64,000 bases of DNA from an uncultured Flavobacteriaceae bacterium. GTDB taxonomy: Bacteria > Bacteroidota > Bacteroidia > Flavobacteriales > Flavobacteriaceae. Under the pieces are notes generated by a model, which was not told the DNA's origin, ran no database searches, and saw only the letters and a list, made by a program, of their open reading frames with translations. The position numbers and the translations under genes were made by a program. This document shows, one piece after another, positions 29,876 to 50,078 of this stretch. The first letter of the stretch is position 1. The number at the start of each line of letters is the position of its first letter. The stretch lies in the NCBI GenBank assembly GCA_963793275.1, contig CAWBZL010000002.1, positions 101,590 through 165,589 of the forward strand, in the 5' to 3' direction.

Positions 29876-29959
29876 CGGGAGTGCGTCAACGCTGGAGAGT
29901 TGAGATAGTCTGTAAAACTATTCCTTAGTAGCTGAATAGGTTCAAATCCTTTCACTCCC
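29876..29959 (+). tRNA. tRNA-Tyr(GTA)-like, class II, with aberrant D-arm and a T-stem mismatch
   Basis: Perfect acceptor stem gggagtg/cactccc, anticodon arm atagt-ctgtaaa-actat and a long variable arm. C8 replaces U8, the D-loop is atypical and the T-stem has a U:U mismatch. Confidence 0.35.
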
Positions 29960-29962
29960 ACA

Positions 29963-30035
29963 GAGTACCGTAGTTCAAAGGCTGGAGCGTCCGGTTGTCT
30001 CCCGGAAAGGTACGGGTTCGAGTCCCGTCGGTACT
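29963..30035 (+). tRNA. tRNA-Asp(GTC)
   Basis: 73-nt cloverleaf: acceptor agtaccg/cggtact, D-stem gttc/gagc, anticodon loop ttgtctc, T-arm acggg-ttcgagt-cccgt. Position 37 is U rather than a purine. Confidence 0.6.
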
Positions 30036-30167
30036 GCGAATGATATTGAAGGAGTTTGCATCGGGACGAGAAGTTTATCCTGAGTAGTGGTGAGGCACGA
30101 GCCGCGAATCGAAGGGAGTCCCGTCGGTACGGTCATGCCTCCGACGAGAGAGGCACGAACCAGAGGA

Positions 30168-30239
30168 AGGCACTTTAGCATAGTGGTTGGTGCACCTCAC
30201 TTTCTATGAGGAGACCAGGGTTTGATTCCCTGATGGAGT
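30168..30239 (+). ncRNA. tRNA-Glu(TTC)-like unit with non-pairing acceptor 3' strand (degenerate)
   Basis: It has D-, anticodon- (cctca-ctttcta-tgagg) and T-arms, but the T-loop tttgatt lacks C56 and the 3' strand atggagt cannot pair with 5' ggcactt. Confidence 0.3.
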
Positions 30240-30243
30240 ACAA

Positions 30244-30339
30244 TGGGCTTATGGTGTAGCGGATAGCATGCTTGGCTTCGAACCAAGTGGTATGTTGCCT
30301 GTGCCGCACTTGATGCGGTATTCAAATCCTGTTAAGCCC
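30244..30339 (+). ncRNA. tRNA-like unit (anticodon TCG) carrying a ~20-nt hairpin insertion in the variable/T region
   Basis: Perfect acceptor gggctta/taagccc and anticodon arm cttgg-cttcgaa-ccaag. A 44-nt segment containing hairpin tgccgca-cttga-tgcggta sits where the variable loop and T-arm should be, and cctgt is duplicated. Confidence 0.3.
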
Positions 30340-30344
30340 ACAAA

Positions 30345-30417
30345 TTGAGGTATAACTCAGCGGCTAGAGTACCGTGCTTTTAACACGGGAGTCCTAGGTT
30401 CAAATCCTAGTGCCTCA
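30345..30417 (+). tRNA. tRNA-Lys(TTT)
   Basis: 73-nt canonical cloverleaf with U8A9, D-stem actc/gagt, anticodon loop cttttaa and T-arm ctagg-ttcaaat-cctag. The 1:72 pair is U:A. Confidence 0.7.
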
Positions 30418-30421
30418 ACAA

Positions 30422-30492
30422 TAAACCCATAGTGTAGTGGTAGCACACAAGATTTTGATTCTTGGGGTCTGAGTTCGAATCTCGGTGGGTTT
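30422..30492 (+). tRNA. tRNA-Gln(TTG)
   Basis: 71-nt cloverleaf with acceptor aaaccca/tgggttt, anticodon arm caaga-ttttgat-tcttg and T-arm ctgag-ttcgaat-ctcgg. Confidence 0.7.
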
Positions 30493-30500
30493 ACACTATA

Positions 30501-30573
30501 TGGAACAGTAGCAAAGCGGGTCAATGCACTGGATTGAAGCTCCAGGAATACGGGTTCGAGTCCTGTCTGTTCC
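30501..30573 (+). tRNA. tRNA-Phe(GAA)
   Basis: 73 nt with perfect acceptor ggaacag/ctgttcc, anticodon arm ctgga-ttgaagc-tccag and T-arm acggg-ttcgagt-cctgt. Confidence 0.7.
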
Positions 30574-30574
30574 A

Positions 30575-30754
30575 CGAAAGGTCTGTAACGCAGATGATAG
30601 TATCAAGCGGGTCTTGTTGTGTGTTTCGGTATAGCACCATTGCATACGGCGTTGCAACTAGTATTGCGAACGTATGTGCAACTTGACTTGAAGGTTTTGC
30701 TGTTTTCCAAAAAATAGCGGCAATCGTTTCGTGGGTTCGAATCCCACTCCCGCC
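30575..30754 (+). ncRNA. structured spacer ending in a canonical tRNA T-arm plus acceptor-3'-like tail, with no matching 5' half
   Basis: gtggg-ttcgaat-cccac at 30730-30746 followed by tcccgcc. Upstream contains the palindrome gttgcaac and hairpins, but no complementary acceptor 5' strand. Confidence 0.2.
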
Positions 30755-30756
30755 CA

Positions 30757-30840
30757 AGCAGGGATAGCGTAGTGGTTAACGCACCAGATAAAGGATCTGG
30801 CAAACGAGAGCAGATGTCGCGGGTTCGACTCCCGCTCCCA
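30757..30840 (+). ncRNA. class II tRNA-like unit (Leu-like, anticodon region AAG) with a 5-nt anticodon loop and a mismatched acceptor
   Basis: U8A9, D-arm gcgt-agtggtta-acgc, long variable region and canonical T-arm gcggg-ttcgact-cccgc. The anticodon hairpin ccagat-aaagg-atctgg has no U33, and only 4 of 7 acceptor pairs form. Confidence 0.25.
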
Positions 30841-30847
30841 ATGTAAA

Positions 30848-30920
30848 TTGGGGTAGCTCAGTTGGTAGAGCACTGCACTTTTAATGCAGGTAATGGACTC
30901 AAAATCCATCATCGTAAAGA
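30848..30920 (+). ncRNA. second tRNA-Lys(TTT)-like unit: canonical 5' two-thirds fused to a non-tRNA 3' end
   Basis: ggggtagctcagttggtagagcactgcacttttaatgcag is a textbook Lys 5' half. Downstream has hairpin atgga-ctcaaaa-tccat (non-TpsiC loop) and 3' strand catcgta that does not pair. Confidence 0.3.
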
Positions 30921-38066: not shown

Positions 38067-38705
38067 TTAAGACGAAATAAATAGTACTTCTCCATCTACC
38101 AACACATAAATTTCATCTTTTTCAGAAGGCGTTAGTATATATTTTCCGGTAAAACTCCCAAAGGCGGGGAAAATTAGTTGTTTTTCAGTTTTATAGAAAC
38201 AGGCAACTCTTACTGTTTGCCTGCCAACACCTTGTAACTTTACACCCGGATGAATATGGCCACAAAAATTGAAATACGCATCCAATTCTGTTGGGTGATG
38301 TGTTAACAGAAATTTTTCGAGTATAAGTTCTTTATAGATTTGAACTCCTAACGCTTCAAATAAGTATTGCGGAATGATATCGTGATTCCCTGAAATTAAA
38401 ATAACCTGCGCTGAGGTATAGTCTACCCACTTTGCAAAATCGCTCCACTCACTATTTAAGTTACTGTGAAAAAGATCGCCTAAAAAACAAACCGTCTGTG
38501 GCTGAAAGTGATTTACAACACCCGTTAATTTTTCTAAATTTTCATAAGCAACGTGTGCAGGAATTGCGGCTCCGTGTTTTCTGAAATGCGTCACTTTTCC
38601 TAAGTGTACATCGGCGATGAGTAGCATTGATTTTTGTTCCCAAAATATTGCTCCGCTGGGGTGGAGGATGAAGTTTTGATCGTTTATGGAAATGGTTTGG
38701 GACAT
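38067..38705 (-). CDS. pdeM: ligase-associated DNA damage response endonuclease PdeM (metallophosphoesterase)
   Basis: 212 aa calcineurin-like phosphoesterase (DVHLGK, GDLFH, GNHD). It is the last gene of the ligase-Lhr operon. Confidence 0.75.
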
Positions 38706-38808
38706 CAGACTGCAAAAATACAGCTTTAGTCATTTCGACGCAGGAGAAACCACATAACAATGACTACTATATTATTTTAATAAGGATTATAACAGTTGAA
38801 ATTATTCA

Positions 38809-41268
38809 TTATTTCATCAATTTTAACGTCATTCGTTTAATTCTATCCTTCAATTTTTCTGAAGAAAGCTTTTCCCGTAACCTGTCGGTAATAATGGGGA
38901 AACTAAAAGGCGTGGCTTCTTCGCATTGTTTCCAAACTATTTCTTGGCTGGCAATTCGCTCCAATGCCAATCGTAGTCTGCCTTCTTCCATTTCGTGTTC
39001 AAAAGTTTCTCTAAATGCCTGTTGGTATAACAAATTATCTGCTTCGTAATCTCTAAACACATCAAACAGCAATTGCGAATTGCTTTGCAGGTGCTTGGTT
39101 TTTATTTGTTTGCTAGGATAGCCCGTAAAAACCAAACCACTTATTACAGCAATATCTCTGAATTTTCTGCGGGCCAATTCAGTACTATTTAAACTTTTTT
39201 GAAGGTCGCTAAAAAGATAGTCAGTGCTAAATAAATTATTGTCCACCACATTCTGAATATCCAAAGGCTGATCGCTCAACAATTCAAAGCCATAATCATT
39301 GTATGCAAGGGAAAAAGTGATGGGAGAAAGCAAACTAATTCTGTACGCCAATAATCCGCCCATTGCCATATGTACAAACCGCCCTTCAAATGGATAAAAT
39401 AAATGGTGATAGCCTTCTCTGGTTTTAAAGGTTTCTATTAAAAACTCATTATTTCCAGGAACAATACTTTCTTTTTCCTGTCTGTCAAAAATATCTGAAA
39501 GAGCTTTTAACTCAGGCGTGTTTCTCTTATGATCTGCTTCAGACTGCAGTTCGTTTCGTAAAATTTCAGACATCTGAGAAGAAAGTGCCATGCGCCCTCC
39601 CATAAAACTTACTACATTTCTTGTGCGCTTGCTACTGCGTCTTACCTGAGCGGCCATATTTCGAACCCTAACCAGTTCCAACGTTCTTCCCGCAAATACA
39701 AATACATCTCCGGGTTTCATTTTTCCTATAAAAAATTCTTCGATGGTACCTATAAATCCGCCACTCACGTATTTTACCTGCACCATTGCATCACTTACTA
39801 TAGTGCCAATAGACAGACGGTGCATCATAGCTGTTTGGCGGCTGTCCACGTAAAACCTCCCATCGTCGTCTACTAAAACGCGTTTATATTCGTCATAAGC
39901 CTGCAAGCTCTGGCTTCCTAGTGTGATAAAATTGAGGCACCATTGCCATTGTTCTTCAGTAATTCCCTGAAAACAAAAGGTGTTTTTAATTTCCGGATAT
40001 ATGTCTTTGGGATAAAAACCATCACTTACAGCAAGGGTTACTAAATACTGAATTAACACATCAAAACTTAACAAATACGGGATGCGGTCTTCCATTACTT
40101 CCCCTTTTACAGCTTTTTTTAGTGCCGAAGCTTCTATCAACTCCATAGCGTGTGTTGGCAAAAAATGAATTACTGATGGTTCTCCGGGTCTGTGATTGCT
40201 ACGCCCTGCCCGTTGTAAAAACTTAGCAATTCCTTTAGGCCCACCAATTTGAATAATAGTTTCTACAGGCGCAAAGTCTACTCCCAGATCCAAACTTGAG
40301 GTAGCCACCACAGCTTTTAAACTTTCGTTTCGTATCGCTTGTTCTACCCACAATCTGGTTTCCTTATTGATGCTTCCGTGATGCATCGCTAATTCGCCAG
40401 CAAACTCCGGATACTTCTCTAAGATTTTCTGAAACCAAATTTCGCATTGACCGCGGGTATTGGTAAAGATGAGTGTAGTTTTACTGGATTTTATAATAGG
40501 TATAATGTCGTCCAGCAAGTGCAATCCCAAATGCCCGCGCCAGGGAAAGGTTTCCATTTTTTTAGGAATAATAGATTTTACAACTATTTTTTTCTTGATG
40601 TTTGCTTTTAATAAAATCGAATTTTCGCGTAACGCTTCATTCATTCCCAGTAACACATCCTGCGCTTGTTCTAAATTTCCAATAGTTGCCGAAATTCCCC
40701 AAATACGAAGCTGAGGCGAGATGGTTTTAAGTCTGGATAAGCCAAGTTCCATCTGCACACCACGTTTGCTGCCAAGGAGCTCGTGCCATTCATCTACCAC
40801 TACAGCTGTAAGGTTTCCGAAGATCTTTTTATAGCCTTTACTTGCCAACAACAACATTAAACTTTCTGGAGTTGTAATGAGTAAATCGGGCATGTTCCGT
40901 TTTTGCTTTGCCCGCTCACTTTGCGCAGTATCACCGGTTCTTATTCCCACAGTTAAGCCTGTTTCCAGTTCGTCTGCAAAACGTTGTGCCGCTTGTTTAA
41001 TTTCTACCGAAAGTGCCCGCAGCGGAGTAATCCAGATTGCTTTTAAACCTTTTGTGTGTTTAGTTTTATATTCCGGATGGTCTTTTATATACTGCAATAC
41101 AATAGGAACCCAAAGTGCATAGGTTTTCCCGCTTCCCGTAGGAGCATTTAGAAGCCCGTGTTTTCCTTGTAAAAATGCCTTCCAGGTTTTTTTCTGAAAT
41201 GGGAATGCCTTCCAGTTTTTAGACTCGAACCAGGTTTCGGCTATTTCTATTAATTGGGATTGATTCAT
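38809..41268 (-). CDS. lhr: ligase-associated DNA damage response DEXH-box helicase (Lhr-like)
   Basis: 819 aa with Walker A APTGSGKT, a DEWH box, helicase C motifs and a long C-terminal Lhr extension. Confidence 0.8.
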   Translation of the reverse strand: MNQSQLIEIAETWFESKNWKAFPFQKKTWKAFLQGKHGLLNAPTGSGKTYALWVPIVLQYIKDHPEYKTKHTKGLKAIWITPLRALSVEIKQAAQRFADELETGLTVGIRTGDTAQSERAKQKRNMPDLLITTPESLMLLLASKGYKKIFGNLTAVVVDEWHELLGSKRGVQMELGLSRLKTISPQLRIWGISATIGNLEQAQDVLLGMNEALRENSILLKANIKKKIVVKSIIPKKMETFPWRGHLGLHLLDDIIPIIKSSKTTLIFTNTRGQCEIWFQKILEKYPEFAGELAMHHGSINKETRLWVEQAIRNESLKAVVATSSLDLGVDFAPVETIIQIGGPKGIAKFLQRAGRSNHRPGEPSVIHFLPTHAMELIEASALKKAVKGEVMEDRIPYLLSFDVLIQYLVTLAVSDGFYPKDIYPEIKNTFCFQGITEEQWQWCLNFITLGSQSLQAYDEYKRVLVDDDGRFYVDSRQTAMMHRLSIGTIVSDAMVQVKYVSGGFIGTIEEFFIGKMKPGDVFVFAGRTLELVRVRNMAAQVRRSSKRTRNVVSFMGGRMALSSQMSEILRNELQSEADHKRNTPELKALSDIFDRQEKESIVPGNNEFLIETFKTREGYHHLFYPFEGRFVHMAMGGLLAYRISLLSPITFSLAYNDYGFELLSDQPLDIQNVVDNNLFSTDYLFSDLQKSLNSTELARRKFRDIAVISGLVFTGYPSKQIKTKHLQSNSQLLFDVFRDYEADNLLYQQAFRETFEHEMEEGRLRLALERIASQEIVWKQCEEATPFSFPIITDRLREKLSSEKLKDRIKRMTLKLMK

Positions 41269-41269
41269 G

Positions 41270-42919
41270 TTACTTAGGAATCAAAGCTCTCAGATCGTCC
41301 AGGGTATTTGCTTCTTCTATAGGTTTGTCTTTTCTCCATCGCAATATTCTTGGAAACCTGGTGGCAATACCGCTTTTATGTCGTTTACTTTCAGCAATGC
41401 CCTCAAAAGCTATTTCAAAAACGTGATGTGGTGTAACGCTTCTTACACGACCAAAGCGTTCCAGGGTGTTCTTTTTTATCCAGGCATCTACTTGTCTGAA
41501 TTCGGCATCTGTGAGACCCGAATATGCTTTTGCAAAAGTTACCAGTTCTCCTTCATCCCAAAGACCAAAGGTATAATCTGTATATAAATTTGCGCGCCTT
41601 CCGTGACCACGCATGGCGTAGGTGAGCACACCGTCTATGGTGAATGGGTCGGTTTTCCATTTCCACCAATCGCCTTTTTTTCGGCCAACTAAATAAGGAG
41701 AATCTTTGCGTTTCAGCATTAAACCTTCACTGCGTTTTTCTCGCGATAATTTTCTTTCGGCTGCGGCATCTTCCCAGGTTTTAAACGTCATTGTTTCGCT
41801 TAGATACAAGCCTATTTCGTCACAACTACATTCTGAAATTAAAGTGTCCAGAATTTCTCTTCTTTCTGAAAAGGGCTTTTGCCGGATATCTTTTCCTTTC
41901 CACTCCAATAGATCGTAAGCATTCAAAATCACCGGTGTTTTCTCCAGTAATTTTTTTGAAATATTCTTTCTGCCAATACGAGTTTGAAGGTCGTTAAAAT
42001 TTCCAATTTCATTATTTCCGAAGGGTAAAATTTCACCATCCAAAACGGTACCGTTAGGAATTTTTGAAAGGAAGCGTTGAAATTCAGGGTATTTATCGGT
42101 AACTAGTTCTTCGCCTCTGGACCAGACAAACACTTCGTCATTTCTGATAATTACCTGGCTCCTGATACCATCCCATTTATGTTCAAAACTCCAGCCTTTA
42201 ATATCGCCCAGATCTTCCTGAAAATTATCTTCTACAGCATACGCCAGATAAAACGGATAGGGTTTACTGAGGTAATCTTCCGGGTTTTCTTCTAAAATTA
42301 AATCCTGAAACGTGGTTGTATCTGCAGTCCAGTTACCCATTAGTTTATAGGCAAGTATGTCTTCATCTATTCCCGTAGATTTTGAGAGTGATCGGGTCAT
42401 TAATTTTTGACTCACCCCAATTCTAAAACCACCCGTAATAATTTTATTGAACACAAAACGCTCAAAATAGCTCATTCTCAACCAGTTTTCCTGAAGATAG
42501 CTTCTTTTTTCATCTTCTTCGAGTGTACGTAGCGTAATGATTTCGTTACAGTATTGAGACAGCGATTTTTCCCGAATTCCCAGCGCCTCTCCCGCTGAGA
42601 GGGGAATATTCTTTTCTTCCTTTTTTAGGGAGTGTTTAGGTGCGCTTGGAATTATTAAGGCAATAGTTTCGGCCAGATCACCCACTATATGATAGCTTTC
42701 TTCAAATAACCACTGTGGGATGCCACTAATTTCGGTTGCCCATAACCTTAGAAGTGTTGTGTTTACAGGGCGTTTTGGTCTTCTGTGTGAGAGTATGGCA
42801 ATGGTCCATAGTTTATCATCTTCACCCGCATTGTTAAAATATTCGGTGAGTGCAGCCACTTTCAAGGTGGTTTTATTGGTACTATCCAGAGTTTTTATGA
42901 GGGCAGCAAAATGTTTCAT
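41270..42919 (-). CDS. ATP-dependent DNA ligase (ligase-associated DNA damage response ligase)
   Basis: 549 aa with adenylation motif I EHKWDGIR and OB-fold region. There is a 4-bp overlap with the upstream exonuclease gene. Confidence 0.8.
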   Translation of the reverse strand: MKHFAALIKTLDSTNKTTLKVAALTEYFNNAGEDDKLWTIAILSHRRPKRPVNTTLLRLWATEISGIPQWLFEESYHIVGDLAETIALIIPSAPKHSLKKEEKNIPLSAGEALGIREKSLSQYCNEIITLRTLEEDEKRSYLQENWLRMSYFERFVFNKIITGGFRIGVSQKLMTRSLSKSTGIDEDILAYKLMGNWTADTTTFQDLILEENPEDYLSKPYPFYLAYAVEDNFQEDLGDIKGWSFEHKWDGIRSQVIIRNDEVFVWSRGEELVTDKYPEFQRFLSKIPNGTVLDGEILPFGNNEIGNFNDLQTRIGRKNISKKLLEKTPVILNAYDLLEWKGKDIRQKPFSERREILDTLISECSCDEIGLYLSETMTFKTWEDAAAERKLSREKRSEGLMLKRKDSPYLVGRKKGDWWKWKTDPFTIDGVLTYAMRGHGRRANLYTDYTFGLWDEGELVTFAKAYSGLTDAEFRQVDAWIKKNTLERFGRVRSVTPHHVFEIAFEGIAESKRHKSGIATRFPRILRWRKDKPIEEANTLDDLRALIPK

Positions 42920-44016
42920 ACCGTATCGTCCTCCTCTTTTTTATTCACTTCGCTTCCTTCTTCTTCATATTGTGTTTTTTCGGTGCGTGCATCCAGGCCC
43001 ATTTCTTCACGCAGATATCTAGAGAAAATCTCGGTATAGCCGTGGGTGGCGATAACTTTTTCAGCACCTGTGTCTTTTACAGTTTGTAGCAATCCGTCCC
43101 AATCTGCGTGATCGCTTAGTACAAATCCGCGGTCTATGGCACGGCGCCTTCTTGCCCCTCTGAACGTCATCCATCCGCTCGCGCTGGCGGTTACATACGG
43201 TACCATCTTTCTGATCCAGGTTCCTCCGTGTGCACTGGGCGGGGCAAGTACTATATTGCCTAACAATTCTTCTTTTTTGGTCTCACGGGTAATGCGTGTA
43301 GTTTCGTGAAAGTTATAATTTTCTCTAAGCACTGCTGTCATATTTTCTATGGCACCGTGGGTGTAAATTTTGCCAATATCCGGATCCAGATGTTTCAGCA
43401 AACGTTGTGCTTTTCCCAGACTGTAGCCAAAAAGGATAGACGTTTTATTTTCTGCTCTGTTGGTGGCCCACCAGTTATTTATGTCTTTAAAAACTTCGGC
43501 CTGTGGGGTCCATTTAAATGCCGGGAGACCAAAGGTACATTCGGTAATAAAGGTGTTGCATTTTACCAGTTCAAAAGGTTCGGCAATGCCGTCATTTTCG
43601 GTTTTAAAATCGCCTGTAAAGACCCAGACTTCTCCTTTATACATTGCTCTTACCTGGCTACTTGCAACAATATGCCCAGCGGGATGAAGACTAAAGGTGA
43701 CTCCGTTTATGGTAAAAGTTTCTCCCCATTTCTTACCGCTTACGGTTATTTCTCCCAGGCGGTGCTTAATAATGGGTACATTTTTATGATGGGTAATGTA
43801 TTGTTTGTGTCCCCACCGACTGTGGTCTGCGTGGCCGTGGGTGATGATGCACTTATCTACAGGACGCCAGGCGTCTATATAAACATCTGCCTGCTTGCAG
43901 TAGATGCCTTTGTCGTTAAATTGAAGGAGTGGTGTTTTAGGCAATTTTTCAGAATTTTCTCGATAATTGAAGTTTGCATGGTCCGAGGTTTGCCTCGAAT
44001 TTAAATTTTTCGCCAT
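42916..44016 (-). CDS. ligase-associated DNA damage response exonuclease (MBL-fold/beta-CASP)
   Basis: 366 aa with metallo-beta-lactamase motif HGHADH and beta-CASP-like C-terminal region. It is the first gene of the operon. Confidence 0.75.
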   Translation of the reverse strand: MAKNLNSRQTSDHANFNYRENSEKLPKTPLLQFNDKGIYCKQADVYIDAWRPVDKCIITHGHADHSRWGHKQYITHHKNVPIIKHRLGEITVSGKKWGETFTINGVTFSLHPAGHIVASSQVRAMYKGEVWVFTGDFKTENDGIAEPFELVKCNTFITECTFGLPAFKWTPQAEVFKDINNWWATNRAENKTSILFGYSLGKAQRLLKHLDPDIGKIYTHGAIENMTAVLRENYNFHETTRITRETKKEELLGNIVLAPPSAHGGTWIRKMVPYVTASASGWMTFRGARRRRAIDRGFVLSDHADWDGLLQTVKDTGAEKVIATHGYTEIFSRYLREEMGLDARTEKTQYEEEGSEVNKKEEDDTV

Positions 44017-44208: not shown

Positions 44209-44634
44209 ATGTCATTTACAGATTTATTTGAGAGTGGAGAACACAAGAGAAACCTGGGTCATTTTGCATCTATTGCAAATATGGCATCGGTAGACGGAGC
44301 TTTGAATGCTGAAGAAGAAAAATTGTTACGCCGTTTTGCCAAGAAATTGGATATTGATGAAACCTTATATGAAGCGGTTTTAAAAAACCCGGGTAAATAT
44401 CCTATTAACCCTCCAAACGATGCAGACAGAAGGCTGGAGCGTATGCATGATCTATTTGAAATGATCTTTGCAGACCACGAGATAGACGATCACGAGCGTT
44501 TTTTAATTGAAAAATATGCTATTGGTTTAGGATATACTGCAGATTTAGCCTCAAAACTTATTAAAAGATCTATTGAAATATATAGCGGTGGTCTGGATAT
44601 GGAAGACTACCGATACCTTTTGAACAAAAAGTAA
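44209..44634 (+). CDS. TerB-family (tellurite resistance / DjlA N-domain-like) protein
   Basis: 141 aa with two repeats of the TerB-like helical motif (ASVDGALNAEEEKLLRRFAKKLDID / HEIDDHERFLIEKYAIGLG). Confidence 0.55.
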   Translation: MSFTDLFESGEHKRNLGHFASIANMASVDGALNAEEEKLLRRFAKKLDIDETLYEAVLKNPGKYPINPPNDADRRLERMHDLFEMIFADHEIDDHERFLIEKYAIGLGYTADLASKLIKRSIEIYSGGLDMEDYRYLLNKK

Positions 44635-44653: not shown

Positions 44654-46153
44654 TTAAAAGAGCTTTTCGATACTGTCGAAGAGCTCTTTTTGCGTATAGG
44701 GTTTTGGTAAAAAAGCCGAAGCTCCCGAAGCCATCATTTGCTCTTGTTTCTGCAACATAGTGCTTCCACTGGCAACTAAAATAGGAATGTGTTGTATGTT
44801 GGAATCCTGCTTGCACTTTCTTATAAAGGCTATACCAGAGCTGTCTGCCAATGCTCCCTTACTAACAATAAGGTTGTAATTTCTTTTTCTCAACAATTCA
44901 AACGCCTGGTTTGCATCCTGCGCTATTTCTAAAATAATTCCTTTCTCATTGTTAAGGAAGGTTCGCATGAAGAGCATTTGGTTGGTTTCAATTTCTTCAA
45001 TAACCAGAATACGCTTGCTCATTAAAATTCCAGAACCTTTTGGCACTGTAGACCTTTTTTCTTTCCTTTTTCTCTCTTTAAAGGGTAGTAAGCAGGAAAA
45101 AGTAGTGCCGTCTTTATTGCTTGTAACCGAAATTTTCCCATCCAATACTGTCACTAGGTCTTTTACAATTTTAAGGCCTAAACCTTCACCAATGGGCTTA
45201 ATTGCATCCTCCTTTAACTGATAATAAGAATCGAAAACACGGTCAATTTCCGAAGTTGGGATTCCCTTTCCGGAGTCTGAAACTGAAATAGCAAGCATAC
45301 AATTTTCAGCACTGTTTTCTTTCAAAGTAACTCCTAATAGTATGGAGCCATGTGTTGTGTTTCTGAAGGCGTTTTCTAATAAATTAAATAGTATTTGATT
45401 TAACCGAAAAGGATCACCAATTAATTTTTTTGGAACTGTTTTTTCAATACTTGCTTCCAGCAAAATATTTTTTTTGCTGAACTTTAATTTATAATGTTGT
45501 TCCAGATTAGTTATAATGTGACCTAAATTAAAGGGAACCTGTTGCTTGGTAATAATTCCCCGCTCAATTTTTGAGATATCCAGCATATCGTCCATGAGTT
45601 GCTTTATTTGCAACCCGGTACGCTCCATTACCTTAAGTGTTTCGTTTTGATCGTAGGAAAGTTTTGTTTTTCTTAGCAACTCCATAAAACCCAGTAGGTT
45701 GTTTAACGGATTTCGGATTTCGTGATTAATATTCGCCAAAAAATTATTTTTGAAATTCTCTTTCGCCAGCAATAACTTCTTGTCAAAAGTTAATCTGTTT
45801 TTTGCAATAGCGGCTTCGTTTTTCTGCTGTACCAGTGGGTGTGCATCCCTGTAATGCGTTGTAAAGTCGAATAACAGCAAATAAATAGTATCCTCTCGTC
45901 GTACAATACTTATGTCTAAAATCTTACTAAAACCATCGCCGGAAAGATTTACACAGGGATAGGTAACATCTTGTGAAACTTCGGGAATTATGTTGATAAT
46001 GGTTTCAAAAAAAGGATGAAAACTAGTGATGTTTTCATTTTCAGTAAAAGGAAACAATACATCATCACTTTCAATCACGGCACCTTCTTTGGTTATTTCA
46101 ATTTGCTGAATCCTTGTGTTGAGAAACTCTTCTTTTAAGAGGGCAGTATTCAT
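44654..46153 (-). CDS. hybrid sensor histidine kinase/response regulator with uncharacterised N-terminal sensor domain
   Basis: 499 aa with N-terminal ~150-aa domain X, a DHp H-box (NINHEIRNPLNNLLGF), HATPase_c N/G boxes and a C-terminal REC domain with a conserved Asp context. Confidence 0.8.
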   Translation of the reverse strand: MNTALLKEEFLNTRIQQIEITKEGAVIESDDVLFPFTENENITSFHPFFETIINIIPEVSQDVTYPCVNLSGDGFSKILDISIVRREDTIYLLLFDFTTHYRDAHPLVQQKNEAAIAKNRLTFDKKLLLAKENFKNNFLANINHEIRNPLNNLLGFMELLRKTKLSYDQNETLKVMERTGLQIKQLMDDMLDISKIERGIITKQQVPFNLGHIITNLEQHYKLKFSKKNILLEASIEKTVPKKLIGDPFRLNQILFNLLENAFRNTTHGSILLGVTLKENSAENCMLAISVSDSGKGIPTSEIDRVFDSYYQLKEDAIKPIGEGLGLKIVKDLVTVLDGKISVTSNKDGTTFSCLLPFKERKRKEKRSTVPKGSGILMSKRILVIEEIETNQMLFMRTFLNNEKGIILEIAQDANQAFELLRKRNYNLIVSKGALADSSGIAFIRKCKQDSNIQHIPILVASGSTMLQKQEQMMASGASAFLPKPYTQKELFDSIEKLF

Positions 46154-46155
46154 AA

Positions 46156-46680
46156 TTACAATGTTTGTGAAGCTATTTCCCGAAAAGTCTCGGCTACATT
46201 TTCCCCTGTTTTGGCACTGGTAAAAAAGCAGTTGCTAAAATGATTTTCTTTAAAAAAATCTTTAGTAAACTCTTCTGAAAAAAGATCGGCTTTGTTTCCC
46301 ACAAAACACACTGGAATGGTTGGATATTTTGTAGACAGAAAAGCCATCTCTTCGGCAATGTTTTCGTAGGTTTCCGGGTGGGTAATGTCGAACACATACA
46401 TAAAGCCGTGGGTGCCCAATAAATAACTTTCTCTGGCTTTTGCTATGGAGGTATTTCCCTCGATATCCCAGATTATTAAGTTTATTTGTGTTGTATCCAG
46501 CGTTACTGTTTTTTTCTTTACGTGTACACCAACCGTTACCAGATAATCTTCGCTAAAAGCGCTCTCCACGAATTGGCGCACTAAACTGGTTTTTCCCACT
46601 CCAAAATGGCCAAGAATTACAATTTTTTTTGAATGGGTCATGGTTGGGTTTTTTATGCACGCAAATATATCCGAAAACAA
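46156..46680 (-). CDS. Ras-like small GTPase (MglA/Rab-like), copy B
   Basis: G1 GHFGVGKTS, switch-I Thr, G3 WDIEG, G4 GNKADL and G5 SAK. The start is probably the internal Met preceding THSKKIVILG. A 2-bp gap separates it from the downstream HK. Confidence 0.7.
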   Translation of the reverse strand: MFSDIFACIKNPTMTHSKKIVILGHFGVGKTSLVRQFVESAFSEDYLVTVGVHVKKKTVTLDTTQINLIIWDIEGNTSIAKARESYLLGTHGFMYVFDITHPETYENIAEEMAFLSTKYPTIPVCFVGNKADLFSEEFTKDFFKENHFSNCFFTSAKTGENVAETFREIASQTL

Positions 46681-46737
46681 AAGATGCTGCTATTTAATTG
46701 AAAGAACTTAAGGTGCAGTTTGTCGAAAACTCACTCG

Positions 46738-47340
46738 CTAAGCATCGAAGTCAAAGTCCAATTCTTCTCGTATCTGGATTGCTTTAAGGTGAAAATTACC
46801 TATACTTTTTTCAATATCCTGTATAAGTTGCCGTTGCTCTGGTGCTATTTCACCTTGTTTTAGTTGCTCCACTTTTGAGATAATGTATTCCAGGGCGCCT
46901 ATCACTTTATCGTCAATACGCTCTCTCATAAAGCCTAAATAGGCCTGTTTTTCTTCTAAATGCTTTCTTCTTAAATTGTGTTCCTGTTCCTGTAATAGTG
47001 CTGTCTTTTTTTCCTGAGCCGCCTCGTGTAAATGTTCGTAATGCTGAGAATAGTCAAAAAGTAAAATGGCCAGAAAATCCGGTTCTTTTTTAATAGTAAT
47101 ATCACATATAGCTTCTTTACCGTGAATGTTTAGTTGTACACAAGGGAAAGCCAAGCTACTGCCAAAGATCTCTCTACTTTGCAATTCGATCTGTAAACTC
47201 TCAAAAAATGGATGAATTTCATATAAATTATCCTTCTTATTTAATAAAAAAATGGTGTCGCTACTTTCAAAAATCTCGCCCGTGGGTTTGGCGTGGATTT
47301 CCTGAATCTTCTTCGAAAAAAATAAATTCTGGTTTGTCAT
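46738..47340 (-). CDS. stand-alone paralogue of the HK N-terminal sensor domain with degenerate DHp-like C-terminus (His replaced by Arg)
   Basis: 200 aa. Residues ~10-110 align with HK residues ~15-115 (shared HPFFE, PCV-L, LLFD-x3-HY). The C-terminus YLGFMRERIDDKV aligns with the HK H-box but lacks the His, and there is no ATPase domain. Confidence 0.55.
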   Translation of the reverse strand: MTNQNLFFSKKIQEIHAKPTGEIFESSDTIFLLNKKDNLYEIHPFFESLQIELQSREIFGSSLAFPCVQLNIHGKEAICDITIKKEPDFLAILLFDYSQHYEHLHEAAQEKKTALLQEQEHNLRRKHLEEKQAYLGFMRERIDDKVIGALEYIISKVEQLKQGEIAPEQRQLIQDIEKSIGNFHLKAIQIREELDFDFDA

Positions 47341-47828
47341 TTTGTTAGTTTTTTTGCTAAGTCTGTAAATACTTCTTGCACGCCCTCTCCCGTTTTGGCA
47401 CTTACAAAGCTGTCTGCTTCTATGTCTTTTTTAAGGAGGTAGTCTATGACGTGTTTGGGGTTTTCTAAGTCACTTTTGTTACCAATTAATTTTAAACTTA
47501 CATGCTCGTATTTTTCTGAAATAAAAGCAATTTCTTTTTCAAGGTTCTCGTACGTAACGGGTCTGGTAATATCAAAAACATATATAAATCCTTCTGAGCC
47601 TAGTAGGTAGGATGGTCGTGCTTTGTCAATAGAAGAAAATCCTTCAAGGTCCCAGATTATCATAGATATTTGTTTTCCATTTGGCAGGTCCAAGACCTTT
47701 TTCTTTATCTGTACGCCCAGTGTGGTTTTATAGTCGTGTTCAAAAACATCTTCCAGCAGCCTTCGCATTAACGAAGTTTTTCCAACCCCAAACTGCCCCA
47801 TGAGCACTATTTTCTTTGAAAGATTCAT
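47337..47828 (-). CDS. Ras-like small GTPase (MglA/Rab-like), copy A
   Basis: 163 aa with G1 GQFGVGKTS, G3 WDLEG, G4 GNKSDL and G5 SAK. There are 4-bp overlaps with both flanking genes. Confidence 0.7.
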   Translation of the reverse strand: MNLSKKIVLMGQFGVGKTSLMRRLLEDVFEHDYKTTLGVQIKKKVLDLPNGKQISMIIWDLEGFSSIDKARPSYLLGSEGFIYVFDITRPVTYENLEKEIAFISEKYEHVSLKLIGNKSDLENPKHVIDYLLKKDIEADSFVSAKTGEGVQEVFTDLAKKLTK

Positions 47829-48637
47829 TTGTTAAAGAATTTTTTCAAAAACAAATCGGTTTCTTCTCTGGAAAGATGCGAAACACCAGAGGACATTTTT
47901 TTTGAAAGTTTAAATAATTTATTTTCTAATTGGCTCTCAAAAGAGCGCGTGTAATTTCCTGAAACTACCACAGCAATATAAAAACTATGGAAGTTCTGAA
48001 TATGAATGGTGTACAACTCATATTCAATATTTTCTAAATTTTGAGTACCCCCTTTAAAAGCATCTTCAACAAAACTCTTTATAGCAGTTAGCATCCCGGA
48101 AATCATGTCTTTATCTACCGTTTCGGTTTTACTGTGATTCCCTAAGAGAATGCCAGATCCCTTTTGGATGAGAAATACCTCGCTAATTACAGGCGGATTC
48201 GTTTCTGTAAGTATAAGATCGCTTTCCTTAACACCCGTAAATCGTGCACGTACTTTTCGCTTTAAACTTATAAGAGAGAACGTATTGTTCACCTTTTTGT
48301 TTACTGTTTCGGAGAGTACTTTTATTTCATTTTGTACGTAGCGTTTAATCATTTTACCCATAATTGGGTATAGCGCTTCTACCACGGCATCCCGAGAATT
48401 TGCGATTTCAGTCTTTAATGTTTTTGTTATTGTTGGTCCTAATGTTACGGGTATTTCGGCTATAAATTCATTCAGTTTTTCCTGAATGATGGGATCTATT
48501 TTTTCTGAAAGTTTAGCACGTTGCTCAATTGTTTGGGTAATTACATCGAGGCGTTGGTTTACAGCACTGGCAATTTCCCTGTCGTCTACCAACAGGATAT
48601 CACGTAGCAGCTGCAATTTATCCTCTTCTTTCACCAT
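47825..48637 (-). CDS. Roadblock/LC7 (MglB-like) domain protein with ~150-aa N-terminal extension
   Basis: 270 aa. The C-terminal ~110 aa (VFLIQKGSGILLGNH...DMISGMLTAIKSF...YIAVVVSGNY) matches the Roadblock/LC7 pattern of GTPase-regulating MglB proteins. Confidence 0.6.
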   Translation of the reverse strand: MVKEEDKLQLLRDILLVDDREIASAVNQRLDVITQTIEQRAKLSEKIDPIIQEKLNEFIAEIPVTLGPTITKTLKTEIANSRDAVVEALYPIMGKMIKRYVQNEIKVLSETVNKKVNNTFSLISLKRKVRARFTGVKESDLILTETNPPVISEVFLIQKGSGILLGNHSKTETVDKDMISGMLTAIKSFVEDAFKGGTQNLENIEYELYTIHIQNFHSFYIAVVVSGNYTRSFESQLENKLFKLSKKMSSGVSHLSREETDLFLKKFFNK

Positions 48638-48650
48638 GTGCTAACACTTT

Positions 48651-49001
48651 TTATGAACTAATCTTCTCCCCCAGATTAATTAGTAGTTTCCCCAGTTGTT
48701 TACGATCTACTTTGCTCTCGGCTAATGCTTCGGTTTTTGAGGTCATTGCATCTTCCAGGTCTGTAATTCTAATATTTACGTCTGTACTTAACGAATCTAT
48801 AGATTGCATTAACTCATTTCTTACTTCATCTATATAATTTTCAAGATGTGCTTTTTGAGTATCTACTGCTTGTTTGAGGGTGTTAAACTCGCTATCTATT
48901 TTTTCAATATTCTCCCCAAAAATGAGGTTTTTGATAGCTTCAATTTTCGAATTGGAATCTAAAGAAGGTGGAGCTTCTAAGGGTGGGTTTTTTTTTGCCA
49001 T
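48651..49001 (-). CDS. hypothetical coiled-coil protein, first gene of the GTPase operon
   Basis: 116 aa with heptad-repeat helical sequence, 13 bp upstream of the Roadblock gene. Confidence 0.45.
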   Translation of the reverse strand: MAKKNPPLEAPPSLDSNSKIEAIKNLIFGENIEKIDSEFNTLKQAVDTQKAHLENYIDEVRNELMQSIDSLSTDVNIRITDLEDAMTSKTEALAESKVDRKQLGKLLINLGEKISS

Positions 49002-49073: not shown

Positions 49074-50078
49074 TTAGGAGTTATGCATAAATTCTTCGGC
49101 TTTTGCAACCATGTTTTTACTTCCGCAGAAAAAGGGCACGCGCTGGTGTAGCGTAGTTGGCTGAATGTCTAAAATACGCTCGTATCCATTGCTGGCACTA
49201 CCGTTAGCTTGCTCAGCGAGATATGCCATTGGGTTACATTCGTATAACAAACGTAGCTTGCCATCCGGATCTTTAGAAGTATTTGGATAGATATAAATAC
49301 CACCCTTTATCATATTTCTGTGAAAGTCTGAAACCAGAGAACCTATATATCGTGCAGAATAAGGGCGATTTTCTTCTTCTTTCTGGCAGTATTTAATATA
49401 ATCCTTTACACCTTGTGGAAAATGAATATAATTCCCTTCGTTTACGGAGTAGATATTCCCGTCTAACGGGTATTTCATATTTGGGTGCGATAAATAGTAG
49501 GTTCCAATTGCAGGATTGAGCGTAAAACCATTTACACCGTGTCCCGTAGAATACACGATCATAGTGGAAGTGCCGTACACAATATATCCGGCCGCTACCT
49601 GGTTTCTTCCGGGCTGAAGGAAATCGTCTATAGTAACAGGGCTTCCCGTAGGCGTTACCCTTCTGTAAATTGAAAAAATAGTCCCTACCGATACGTTTAC
49701 ATCTATATTTGAAGAACCATCCAGCGGATCCATGAGCACAATATATTTGTTATCGTTCTTTTTATTCCGGCCCTGAATGGTAATAAAATCGTCTTCTTCT
49801 TCACTGGCAATTCCACAAACAATCTCACGGTTGGTGAGGGTCTTTATAAAAATTTCGTTGGCATACACATCCAGTTTTTGCTGGTCTTCGCCTTGCACAT
49901 TTGTTTCTCCTGCAGCCCCTAAAATATCTACCAGTCCTGCTTTATTTACCTCGTGGTTTACTACTTTGGCAGCCAAACGTATAGAATTAATTAACCGTGA
50001 AAGTTCTCCCGAAGAATACTTAAACTCCTCTTGATTTTCAATAATAAATTCGCCTAAAGTCTGGTTCTGTTTTGCCAT
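49074..50078 (-). CDS. fbp: fructose-1,6-bisphosphatase class 1
   Basis: 334 aa with class I FBPase motifs ([17 protein letters not shown]). Confidence 0.9.

What the first reader, a model, noticed from the sequence alone, without database searches (positions are those of the whole stretch)
44654..49001. Operon coupling two Ras-like small GTPases and a Roadblock/MglB-like protein to a hybrid histidine kinase
Six co-directional, tightly packed genes are coupled by 4-bp ATGA-type overlaps at 47825-47828 and 47337-47340 and a 2-bp gap at 46153-46156. They encode a coiled-coil protein, a Roadblock/LC7 protein with a long N-terminal extension, GTPase A, a stand-alone domain-X protein, GTPase B and a domain-X–HisKA–HATPase–REC hybrid kinase. 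Both GTPases have complete G1-G5 motifs but no Gln after DxxG, which is MglA-like and implies a dependence on a GAP. The architecture suggests a eukaryote-like small-GTPase switch (GTPase plus Roadblock GAP/GEF) wired directly into two-component phosphorelay, with domain X as the likely GTPase effector or sensor. Roadblock–MglA–kinase neighbourhoods were predicted computationally, but this duplicated [GTPase + domain-X] arrangement with one kinase-dead copy is, to my knowledge, uncharacterised. In a gliding Flavobacterium-type organism it could control polarity or motility, but that is speculation.
Basis: partly seen in the sequence, partly recalled or inferred. Interest (0 to 1): 0.85.

Follow-up and report, generated by a model that had tools for sequence, protein, structure and literature searches.

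The report
Bacterial Rab-like GTPase–kinase signalling cassette, duplicated
This is a real, conserved six-gene cluster, but its four-gene core is the "Rup Group 1" small-GTPase signalling cassette already catalogued by comparative genomics in 2014 and still untested experimentally; this genome carries a duplicated variant, and structure prediction assigns folds to the two previously "unknown" domains.

Summary
Six minus-strand genes (44654-49001) have the stated overlaps. Both GTPases are Ras/Rab-like, have complete G1-G5 motifs and lack Gln after DxxG.

The GTPases are not MglA-like. They belong to the "Rup Group 1" cassette of Wuichet & Søgaard-Andersen 2014: coiled-coil DUFY, DUFX, Rup, and a signalling protein whose N-terminal domain has an invariant Gln. 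That paper's Table S2 lists Flavobacteriaceae members.

New findings here:
- The kinase's receiver domain has Lys in place of the phospho-acceptor Asp, so it is not a working hybrid kinase.
- [RupA + PAS-DHp-only protein] is a single-origin tandem duplication. It occurs in about 14 of 81 related loci; most loci have the four-gene core.

The likely mechanism is inferred, not shown. DUFX/DUFY would regulate Rup's nucleotide state. Rup would engage the PAS domain to set kinase activity, possibly with the PAS Gln acting in trans.

Verdict: a new variant of a known, uncharacterised kind; moderate interest.

The parts
48651..49001 (-). DUFY: 116-aa soluble helical/coiled-coil protein, first gene of the cassette
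   Evidence: ORF. Only weak helical-repeat Pfam hits (Apolipoprotein 1.4e-5). Present in 80 of 81 loci, with a conserved SKIxAIKxLIFGENI motif. Corresponds to the 'coiled-coil cytoplasmic protein' (DUFY) of PMC4316618.
47825..48637 (-). DUFX: 270-aa protein with a low-confidence helical N-half (conserved YPxxG) and a C-terminal longin/Roadblock-fold domain
   Evidence: No Pfam or NCBIfam hit. The family has 3,551 clusters at 50% identity. Longer members carry BON and OmpA domains, matching 'DUFX:OmpA' in the paper's Table S2. No TM-like segment.
47831..48226 (-). Longin/Roadblock-fold domain of DUFX (residues 138-269; alpha-beta-beta-alpha-beta-beta-beta-alpha-alpha)
47337..47828 (-). RupA: 163-aa Rab-like small GTPase, the duplicated paralogue (G1 GQFGVGKT, G3 DLEGF)
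   Evidence: Pfam Ras 1.2e-28. 51% identical to RupB. Forms a monophyletic clade, so a single duplication. Phe at Ras position 61 in all RupA sequences. RupA-specific H11Q and N61F.
46738..47340 (-). Stand-alone PAS-X protein: PAS domain (residues 12-96, nt 47053-47307) plus a DHp-like helical hairpin (residues 98-191, nt 46768-47049), with no phospho-acceptor His and no ATPase domain
46662..46669 (-). TATATTTG box in the 96-bp gap upstream of RupB; a possible Bacteroidetes-type -7 promoter element
   Evidence: Sequence. Similar TAnnTTT[G/A] boxes lie 20-30 nt upstream of the Rup start in many loci of the same clade. Function untested.
46156..46641 (-). RupB: 161-aa Rab-like small GTPase, orthologue of the single Rup in four-gene loci (G1 GHFGVGKT, G3 DIEGN)
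   Evidence: Pfam Ras 3.8e-33. Best solved relatives are Rab1B/Rab1A/Rab35 (E about 5e-22). Phe at Ras position 12 in 93 of 94 family members; Asn at position 61 in 56.
44654..46153 (-). Soluble sensor kinase: PAS-X (residues 1-110, nt 45824-46153), HisKA (135-199, His144), HATPase_c (246-359), pseudo-receiver (382-495, Lys432 at the phospho-Asp position)
   Evidence: Pfam HisKA 3.8e-18, HATPase_c 4e-22, Response_reg 1.8e-13. H-box His present in 83 of 85 orthologues. Receiver residues at CheY positions 12/13/57/87/109 read EEKSK. Q16 is 99% conserved over 109 PAS-X sequences.

Best explanation
The block is a Flavobacteriaceae version of the 'Rup Group 1' (Rup1) small-GTPase signalling cassette. 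It holds DUFY (coiled-coil), DUFX (helical region plus longin/Roadblock-fold domain), a Rab-like Rup GTPase without a catalytic Gln, and a soluble PAS-HisKA-HATPase kinase. In this lineage a tandem duplication added a second GTPase (RupA) and a truncated PAS-DHp paralogue of the kinase.

Proposed mechanism (inferred, not shown):
1. The DUFX/DUFY pair acts as the platform that sets Rup's nucleotide state. It could be an exchange factor or a GAP co-factor, as longin/Roadblock proteins are for Rab, Rag and MglA.
2. Rup-GTP binds the PAS domain of the protein encoded immediately downstream.
3. The PAS domain relays this through its DIT-like 'FDFT' junction and coiled-coil to the DHp, switching kinase activity towards an unlinked response regulator.
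4. The invariant PAS Gln (Q16 in the kinase, Q13 in the stand-alone copy) may complete the GTPase active site in trans, so that engaging the effector also times the signal.
5. The receiver-like C-terminus cannot be phosphorylated at the canonical site in this clade and probably serves as a regulatory or docking domain.
6. RupA with the His-less PAS-DHp protein forms a second input or a decoy that could heterodimerise with the kinase.
For: Identity of the cassette:
- PMC4316618 describes this four-gene neighbourhood, including the absent G3 Gln and an invariant Gln in the N-terminal domain of the output protein.
- Its Table S2 lists Lacinutrix, Croceibacter, Cellulophaga and others as DUFY>DUFX>Rup.
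- My loci include Lacinutrix species with the same order.
- DUFX homologues with BON and OmpA confirm the family link.

Rup properties:
- Ras/Rab-like, with complete G motifs, Phe at position 12 and N/F at position 61.

DUFX fold:
- Longin/Roadblock by two independent methods.

PAS-X:
- PAS fold followed by a helical hairpin.
- Near-invariant Q16, HPFF, C67, D80 and Y101.

Rup-PAS coupling:
- In every locus a Rup gene sits directly upstream of a PAS-X gene, with overlapping or nearly abutting stop and start codons.
- The duplicated unit is exactly Rup + PAS-DHp.
- RupA/RupB fixed differences concentrate in the switch I/II windows and at catalytic-site positions 11 and 61.
- A cassette from another phylum keeps CC-DUFX-Rup but swaps the output for a sigma54 activator.

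Kinase:
- Catalytically intact, but the receiver Asp is Lys.
Against: - No interaction, GTPase, exchange or phosphorylation data exist for any Rup1 system in the searchable literature.
- No complex prediction could be run.
- DUFX has no family-wide invariant Arg, Gln or Asn that would mark a catalytic finger, so its role as GEF, GAP or scaffold is open.
- The conserved His, Cys and Tyr in PAS-X are equally compatible with a cofactor or ligand pocket.
- PAS-X and Rup copy numbers are not always 1:1. Seven loci have a PAS-only ORF without a second Rup, and seven have a second kinase.
- Eight of 94 Rups do have Gln at position 61.
- The N-terminus of the sigma54 activator in L085 shows no detectable similarity to PAS-X.
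- The DUFX model has low confidence outside the C-terminal domain.
Confidence: 0.6

Rival explanations
1. PAS-X is an ordinary ligand- or cofactor-binding sensor (redox, metal or haem type) that controls the kinase by itself. Rup and DUFX/DUFY act in parallel or on another surface of the kinase, and the conserved Gln is structural rather than catalytic.
For: PAS fold with a classic PAS-to-coiled-coil-to-DHp architecture. Near-invariant His46, Cys67, His100 and Tyr101 could line a pocket. PAS-only stand-alone ORFs exist without a paired Rup.
Against: The strict Rup-then-PAS gene adjacency is kept through the duplication. Rup lacks the catalytic Gln and the partner domain has an invariant Gln, as noted independently across phyla. 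No Pfam PAS model or cofactor-binding motif is recognised.
Confidence: 0.2
2. Conservon-like logic with reversed signal flow. The kinase senses the signal and the GTPase is the output, as proposed for the actinobacterial CvnA-D system, with DUFX playing the CvnB (Roadblock) role.
For: The cassette has no response regulator, and the receiver is dead in this clade. It contains a Roadblock-superfamily protein and a kinase, as the conservon does. The 2014 authors themselves draw the analogy.
Against: Outputs in the wider family are interchangeable signalling modules: kinase, GGDEF/EAL or sigma54 activator. That pattern fits outputs lying downstream of Rup. The GTPase belongs to Rup, not MglA group 2. 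There is no CvnC/DUF742 and no membrane HAMP kinase. Many orthologous kinases keep a canonical receiver.
Confidence: 0.12
3. One reading: an MglA/MglB-type polarity switch that controls gliding motility and is wired into a hybrid-kinase phosphorelay.
Against: The GTPases have a canonical DxxG and are Rab-like rather than MglA-like. DUFX does not match Pfam Robl_LC7. The receiver lacks its Asp. The neighbours are FBPase, a TerB-like gene and DNA-repair genes, not motility genes. According to Table S2 the cassette also occurs in cyanobacteria, Chloroflexi and gamma-, alpha-, delta- and epsilon-proteobacteria.
Confidence: 0.06
4. The genes are neighbours only through inherited synteny and do not work together.
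For: FBPase is also adjacent in 71 of 81 loci without an obvious functional link, which shows that synteny in this family can be passive.
Against: There are overlapping stop and start codons. The core cassette is kept when FBPase adjacency is lost. It is found across phyla with different outputs.
Confidence: 0.02

Closest known systems
Rup Group 1 (Rup1) GTPase neighbourhood (Wuichet & Søgaard-Andersen 2014, PMC4316618)
   Same: It has the same four components in the same order (DUFY coiled-coil, DUFX, Rup lacking the G3 Gln, and a signalling protein with an invariant Gln in its N-terminal domain). Flavobacteriaceae members are already listed in Table S2, and there too the Bacteroidetes DUFX lacks OmpA.
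   Different: This locus has a tandem duplicate [RupA + PAS-DHp-only protein], a receiver with no phospho-acceptor Asp, and a likely internal promoter. [quoted passage not shown] Here DUFX is predicted to have a longin/Roadblock fold and the N-terminal domain a PAS fold.
MglA/MglB polarity module of Myxococcus xanthus
   Same: A small Ras-superfamily GTPase is encoded next to a protein with a Roadblock-superfamily fold.
   Different: MglA has Thr in place of the G3 Asp and its own catalytic residues. MglB is a stand-alone Robl_LC7 protein recognisable by sequence. There is no PAS-kinase or coiled-coil partner in that operon.
Actinobacterial conservon (CvnA-D; Mfp in mycobacteria)
   Same: A kinase, a Roadblock-fold protein and a small GTPase are encoded together, with no response regulator in the operon.
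   Different: The conservon GTPase is MglA group 2. Its kinase is membrane-bound with HAMP and a C-terminal LPxR motif. It includes CvnC/DUF742. It has no PAS-X and no DUFY.
Eukaryotic longin/Roadblock platforms for Rab and Rag GTPases (Mon1-Ccz1, TRAPP, DENN, Ragulator, FLCN-FNIP, GATOR1)
   Same: A Rab-like GTPase is paired with a longin/Roadblock-fold regulator. The best structural matches of DUFX come from these complexes.
   Different: There is no sequence-level homology. Bacterial DUFX has a unique helical N-half and, outside the Bacteroidetes, TM/BON/OmpA extensions. No function has been tested.
TBC-domain RabGAPs and RapGAP/TSC2 (catalytic Gln or Asn supplied in trans)
   Same: They are a precedent for a GTPase whose catalytic carboxamide is provided by the partner. 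That is what is proposed for the PAS-X Gln (my own knowledge).
   Different: The fold is unrelated: PAS here, against TBC or RapGAP. The proposal is untested.

Membership tests
Rup Group 1 system | Single-domain Ras-superfamily GTPase of 150-240 aa with eukaryote-like G1-G5 motifs | tested here: met
   163 and 161 aa. Pfam Ras E 1e-28 and 4e-33. G1-G5 tabulated. Top 60 PDB matches are all Rab/Ypt.
Rup Group 1 system | G3 keeps Asp but lacks the catalytic Gln | tested here: met
   DLEGF (RupA) and DIEGN (RupB). Across 94 family members position 61 is N in 56, F in 16 and Q in only 8.
Rup Group 1 system | Neighbouring DUFY (coiled-coil) and DUFX genes, with DUFX homologous to OmpA-fused versions | tested here: met
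   Gene order CC>DUFX>Rup in all complete loci. The DUFX profile finds members of 520-1,160 aa carrying BON and OmpA. Table S2 architecture.
Rup Group 1 system | Adjacent signalling output protein whose N-terminal region has an invariant Gln | tested here: met
   The kinase follows Rup. Q16 is conserved in 99% of 109 PAS-X sequences. I could not confirm that this is the same Gln as in the paper's logo; Q109 is also 97% conserved.
MglA family | G3 with Thr in place of Asp (group 1) and an insertion between G1 and G2 | tested here: not met
   Canonical WDxEG. Aligns to Rab1 from G1 to G3 without gaps. The MglA Thr78 feature is taken from the PMC3000849 abstract.
Roadblock/LC7 (Pfam PF03259) / MglB | Sequence match to the Robl_LC7 model | tested here: not met
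   No Robl_LC7 hit at E<=0.1 in Pfam or NCBIfam. No sequence match in the PDB.
Longin/Roadblock structural superfamily | Alpha/beta sandwich with a five-stranded antiparallel sheet and beta-beta-alpha-beta-beta-beta topology plus flanking helices | tested here: met
PAS domain | Five-stranded antiparallel sheet with helical connector, C-terminal DIT-like motif leading into a coiled-coil | tested here: met
Hybrid histidine kinase (phosphorelay) | Receiver domain with the phospho-acceptor Asp and acidic pocket | tested here: not met
   The Response_reg domain is present, but CheY D57 corresponds to Lys432 and D12/D13 to E386/E387. Asp is retained in 35 orthologues from other genera.
Histidine kinase (HisKA family) | H-box His plus N, G1 and G2 boxes of the ATPase domain | tested here: met
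   His144 in NINHEIRNPL. HATPase_c E 4e-22. NLLENA, DSGKG and GEGLGL can be read in the sequence. His present in 83 of 85 orthologues.
Actinobacterial conservon | CvnC (DUF742) plus a membrane HAMP kinase with a C-terminal LPxR motif | tested here: not met
   None of the six proteins hits DUF742 or HAMP. No TM-like segment. The kinase ends ...SIEKLF.

The most novel reading that the evidence does not exclude
DUFX is a true bacterial longin/Roadblock regulator (GEF or GAP platform) of the Rab-like Rup GTPase, and the PAS domain of the downstream kinase is both its effector and its Gln-finger GAP. That would make the pairing of a Rab-type GTPase with a longin/Roadblock platform a widespread bacterial invention: thousands of protein clusters, and at least 544 species in one pattern scan. 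It would predate or parallel the eukaryotic Rab/Rag regulators. It would also reveal a new way of gating two-component kinases, and a new GAP fold.
Probability: 0.3. Interest if true: 0.8.

Novelty: new variant of a known kind. Interest (0 to 1): 0.5.

Why it matters
Rup1 proteins are the bacterial GTPases closest to eukaryotic Rab/Ras/Rho/Ran, yet none has been studied experimentally. This locus offers a compact, fully soluble version of the system: no membrane anchor and no OmpA domain. It also holds a natural duplication that separates GTPase + PAS from the kinase output, which suits in-vitro reconstitution.

The fold assignments turn two "unknown" components into testable hypotheses. DUFX becomes a candidate longin/Roadblock regulator, and the N-terminal domain a candidate PAS effector/GAP. 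They also revise the earlier statement that Rup GTPases are not associated with MglB-like proteins. If confirmed, the Rab-like GTPase/longin-Roadblock partnership would be relevant to debates on the origin of eukaryotic small-GTPase regulation.

Tried and rejected
- **Sigma70 promoter/terminator scan.** The counts were no higher than in shuffled sequence, and the scan does not cover Bacteroidetes promoters. Uninformative.
- **PAS-X profile search in the word-indexed database.** It returned almost only short stand-alone PAS-X proteins, so it could not show other output architectures such as GGDEF/EAL.
- **hhalign of PAS-X against the N-terminus of the sigma54 activator in L085.** Probability 0.3%, so I claim no homology.
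- **Sequence-profile searches of DUFX and PAS-X against the PDB.** Nothing found.
- **afdb50 fold search.** The library was not available.
- **Organism identification.** No name or record was returned. The organism is only inferred to be a relative of Marinirhabdus, from 80-90% protein identity.
- **Scan of the whole window for a partner response regulator, a second kinase, or extra Rup/PAS-X copies.** None found.
- **Considered and rejected on the membership tests:** MglA family, conservon, Era/Obg/translation-factor GTPases (only marginal sub-threshold hits), and a membrane-anchored DUFX (no TM segment).

Full report
**1. The observation**

All six minus-strand ORFs exist at the reported coordinates.
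- The sequence shows ATGA stop/start overlaps at 47825-47828 and 47337-47340.
- GTPase B's TAA stop (46156-46158) and the kinase's ATG (46151-46153) are separated by two bases.
- The finding does not mention a 13-bp gap after the first gene.
- It also omits a 96-bp gap between the stand-alone domain-X gene and GTPase B. That figure assumes the ATG at 46641, which orthologue lengths of 161-165 aa support, rather than the upstream TTG.

Pfam places both GTPases in the Ras family (E 1.2e-28 and 3.8e-33). It finds HisKA, HATPase_c and Response_reg in the 499-aa protein. It finds nothing in the 200-aa protein and no significant family in the 270-aa protein (only sub-threshold matches at E>0.03).
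- The two GTPases are 51% identical.
- The 200-aa protein aligns with the kinase's first ~190 residues (E 2e-22). The alignment runs through the DHp helix, where the phospho-acceptor His is matched by Asp.

**2. What the block is**

The decisive lead came from the literature. Wuichet & Søgaard-Andersen (2014, PMC4316618) split prokaryotic Ras-superfamily GTPases into the MglA and Rup families. For "Group 1 Rup" they describe a conserved neighbourhood of three further genes:
- a cytoplasmic coiled-coil protein (DUFY);
- a protein with a conserved unknown domain (DUFX), often followed by a TM helix and an OmpA domain;
- a signalling output protein, either GGDEF/EAL or a histidine kinase.

The output protein's N-terminal region carries an invariant Gln. 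The authors suggest this Gln substitutes in trans for the catalytic Gln missing from the Rup G3 motif.

Their Table S2 lists six Flavobacteriaceae (Cellulophaga, Croceibacter, HTCC2170, F. branchiophilum, Krokinobacter, Lacinutrix) with the order DUFY>DUFX>Rup and Rup lengths of 161-165 aa. In Bacteroidetes the DUFX is listed without OmpA.

I tested each defining feature.
- The window's GTPases have eukaryote-like G1-G5 motifs and D[LI]EG followed by F or N.
- Their best solved relatives are Rab1, Rab35 and Rab14, with no gap between G1 and G3.
- A profile of the 270-aa protein finds 3,551 clusters at 50% identity. The members of 520-1,160 aa carry BON and OmpA domains C-terminal to the matched region. 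This also explains why databases name the OmpA-less flavobacterial proteins "cell envelope biogenesis protein OmpA".
- A Gln (Q16 in the kinase, Q13 in the stand-alone protein) is conserved in 99% of 109 domain-X sequences.

All tested features are met, so the block is a member of the Rup Group 1 system.

**3. Conservation and the duplication**

A pattern scan of one genome per species found at least 544 genomes encoding a DUFX relative. The 80 best loci are all Flavobacteriaceae. I annotated these loci, plus four fetched earlier, with the window's proteins. Of 81 non-redundant loci:

| Architecture | Loci |
|---|---|
| Four-gene core (DUFY-DUFX-Rup-kinase) | 48 |
| Six-gene form seen here | 12 |
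| Six-gene derivatives (one with an extra PAS-only ORF, one with a RupA fragment) | 2 |
| Short PAS-only ORF (116-139 aa) between DUFX and Rup, no second GTPase | 7 |
| Second tandem PAS-kinase | 7 |
| Truncated contigs | 4 |
| Core with DUFY not detected | 1 |

- RupA sequences form a single clade, separate from the Rup that precedes the kinase, so the duplication happened once.
- The duplicated unit was Rup plus the PAS-DHp part of the kinase.
- Most short PAS-only ORFs are closer to the 200-aa protein (42-48% identity) than to any kinase PAS (31-39%). They have Asp replaced by Asn in the junction motif. They therefore look like decayed descendants of the six-gene form.
- RupA and RupB differ at only eight fixed positions. 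Five lie in the switch I/II windows (binomial p about 0.015, small n).
- The two RupA-specific changes, H11Q and N61F, flank the gamma-phosphate site.

**4. Fold assignments (new relative to the 2014 description)**

*Domain X.* The 200-aa protein was modelled with mean pLDDT 83, and about 90 in the N-terminal domain. The model is a five-stranded alpha/beta domain (residues 12-96) followed by a long helical hairpin.
- Its C-terminal "FDFT/FDYS-HY" resembles the DIT motif that couples PAS domains to signalling helices. That comparison comes from my own knowledge of PAS kinases.

*DUFX.* The 270-aa protein modelled poorly overall (pLDDT 60), with a low-confidence helical N-half. Residues 138-269 (pLDDT 60-86) form an alpha-beta-beta-alpha-beta-beta-beta-alpha-alpha domain.
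- Foldseek independently ranks Rag C-terminal domains, LAMTOR, Sec22b, M. xanthus MglB and Mon1-Ccz1 at probability about 1.0.
It is not a sequence-level Robl_LC7 member.
- Across 150 diverse family representatives the conserved positions are YPxxG in the helical half and G162, GMLTAIxxF, LxxIxY and G227 in the domain. There is no invariant Arg, Gln or Asn.

None of the six proteins has a TM-like segment.

**5. The kinase is not a functional hybrid kinase here**

- The H-box His (His144) and the ATP-binding boxes are intact, and 83 of 85 orthologues keep the His.
- Aligned with CheY, the receiver has E386/E387 in place of D12/D13 and Lys432 in place of the phospho-acceptor D57. The conserved Ser/Thr and Lys are kept.
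- The D-to-K change is shared by 32 orthologues in the window's clade, including loci with the four-gene form.
- Thirty-five orthologues in other genera keep the Asp, and nine have Ser or Ala. The seven second-copy kinases have Asn.
- No other receiver-domain protein is encoded in the 64 kb.

**6. Mechanism**

*Shown computationally:* the composition, conservation, folds and motif states described above.

*Inferred:*
- DUFX, probably together with DUFY, controls Rup's nucleotide state. The basis is the analogy with every well-studied longin/Roadblock partner of Rab, Rag and MglA GTPases.
- Rup-GTP engages the PAS domain encoded immediately downstream. Supporting points are the invariable Rup-then-PAS adjacency with coupled stop/start codons, their co-duplication as a unit, and the paralogue-specific changes in the switch regions.
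- The PAS domain signals through the coiled-coil to the DHp.
- The invariant PAS Gln may act as a trans catalytic residue. This would be analogous to the Gln finger of TBC RabGAPs and the Asn thumb of RapGAP (my own knowledge). It fits with Phe at Ras position 12 in 93 of 94 Rups, which would obstruct an Arg-finger mechanism.
- The His-less PAS-DHp paralogue with RupA could be a second input, or a decoy that heterodimerises with the kinase.

*Rivals:* a conventional ligand-sensing PAS, a conservon-like reversed signal flow, and an MglA/MglB-type motility switch. They are weighed in the rivals section. The motility idea has no support from gene context, and the cassette occurs in many non-gliding phyla.

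**7. Transcription**

The sigma70-type scan is uninformative for Bacteroidetes.
- The 96-bp gap before RupB contains TATATTTG at 46662-46669, which matches the Bacteroidetes -7 consensus TAnnTTTG (my own knowledge).
- Similar boxes lie 20-30 nt upstream of the Rup start in many loci of the same clade.
- In more distant genera DUFX and Rup overlap or abut.

The "operon" may therefore be two transcription units in this clade. This is untested.

**8. Novelty**

- I found no experimental study of any Rup1 system. Later work only places "eubacterial Rup1" with Rab/Ras/Rho/Ran and Asgard RasL in trees.
- No solved structure matches DUFX or PAS-X by sequence.
- The cassette is a known, computationally defined kind, and this locus is a new variant of it.
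- The fold assignments appear to be new within the literature I could search. [quoted passage not shown]
- The limits are plain. All functional statements are inferences. The DUFX model is of moderate quality. No complex prediction was possible.

Noticed in passing
window 46642-46737 (box at 46662-46669, minus strand): The only sizeable intergenic gap in the block holds TATATTTG, which matches the Bacteroidetes -7 promoter consensus. It ends 20 nt upstream of the RupB ATG. Related boxes recur at the same place in many loci of the clade, so RupB and the kinase may be a separate transcription unit.
   Followed up: partly
window 44669-45010 (receiver domain of the kinase); loci L001-L084: The receiver's phospho-acceptor Asp has been lost repeatedly. 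It is Lys in the window's whole clade (32 kinases), Ser or Ala in the Algibacter/Tamlana/Hyunsoonleella group (9), and Asn in all seven second-copy kinases. Thirty-five orthologues keep Asp.
   Followed up: yes
L014, L015, L020, L031, L032, L034, L041; L028:9054-9437: Short stand-alone PAS-X ORFs (116-139 aa) lie between DUFX and Rup with no second GTPase. Most are closer to the 200-aa PAS-DHp protein than to any kinase PAS, and they have FNY/FNF instead of FDY/FDF at the junction. They look like decaying remnants of the duplication.
   Followed up: partly
L048, L055, L069, L072, L078, L079, L080: A second PAS-X histidine kinase lies in tandem downstream of the first, with a single Rup. This is a different way of duplicating the output.
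   Followed up: no
L085:953-5042 (ENA metagenome contig): A non-flavobacterial cassette reads CC-like protein > DUFX-BON-OmpA > Rup > sigma54 enhancer-binding protein. This output type is not mentioned in the 2014 text I read. Its N-terminal 157 residues show no detectable similarity to PAS-X, and its Rup has WDLAH in place of DxxG.
   Followed up: partly
window 49074-50078 (-): A class I fructose-1,6-bisphosphatase gene sits 72 bp upstream, co-directional with the cassette. It is adjacent in 71 of 81 related loci but absent from that position in the Algibacter-type loci, so the adjacency is probably passive synteny.
   Followed up: partly
window 44209-44634 (+): A convergent 141-aa TerB-like gene lies immediately downstream of the kinase. 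It is in the same position in Rasiella, Ulvibacter and Gilvibacter.
   Followed up: no
window 38067-44016 (-): A cluster of Metallophos phosphoesterase, Lhr-type DEAD helicase (819 aa), ATP-dependent DNA ligase (549 aa) and a metallo-beta-lactamase-type protein (366 aa). The matching genes in Rasiella and Gilvibacter carry DNA_ligase_A, WHD_Lhr/DEAD_assoc and Metallophos domains. It looks like a ligase-associated DNA-repair operon.
   Followed up: no
window 29877-30910 (+): Nine tRNA genes are packed into about 1 kb, in the only region of raised G+C content (0.44).
   Followed up: no
P0293, P0304, P0316, P0338 (DUFX relatives of 880-1,160 aa): Some DUFX relatives match the profile in several stretches (up to 8) before their BON and OmpA domains, which suggests internal repeats of the helical region. 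The one context examined (L087) had no Rup gene next to it.
   Followed up: no
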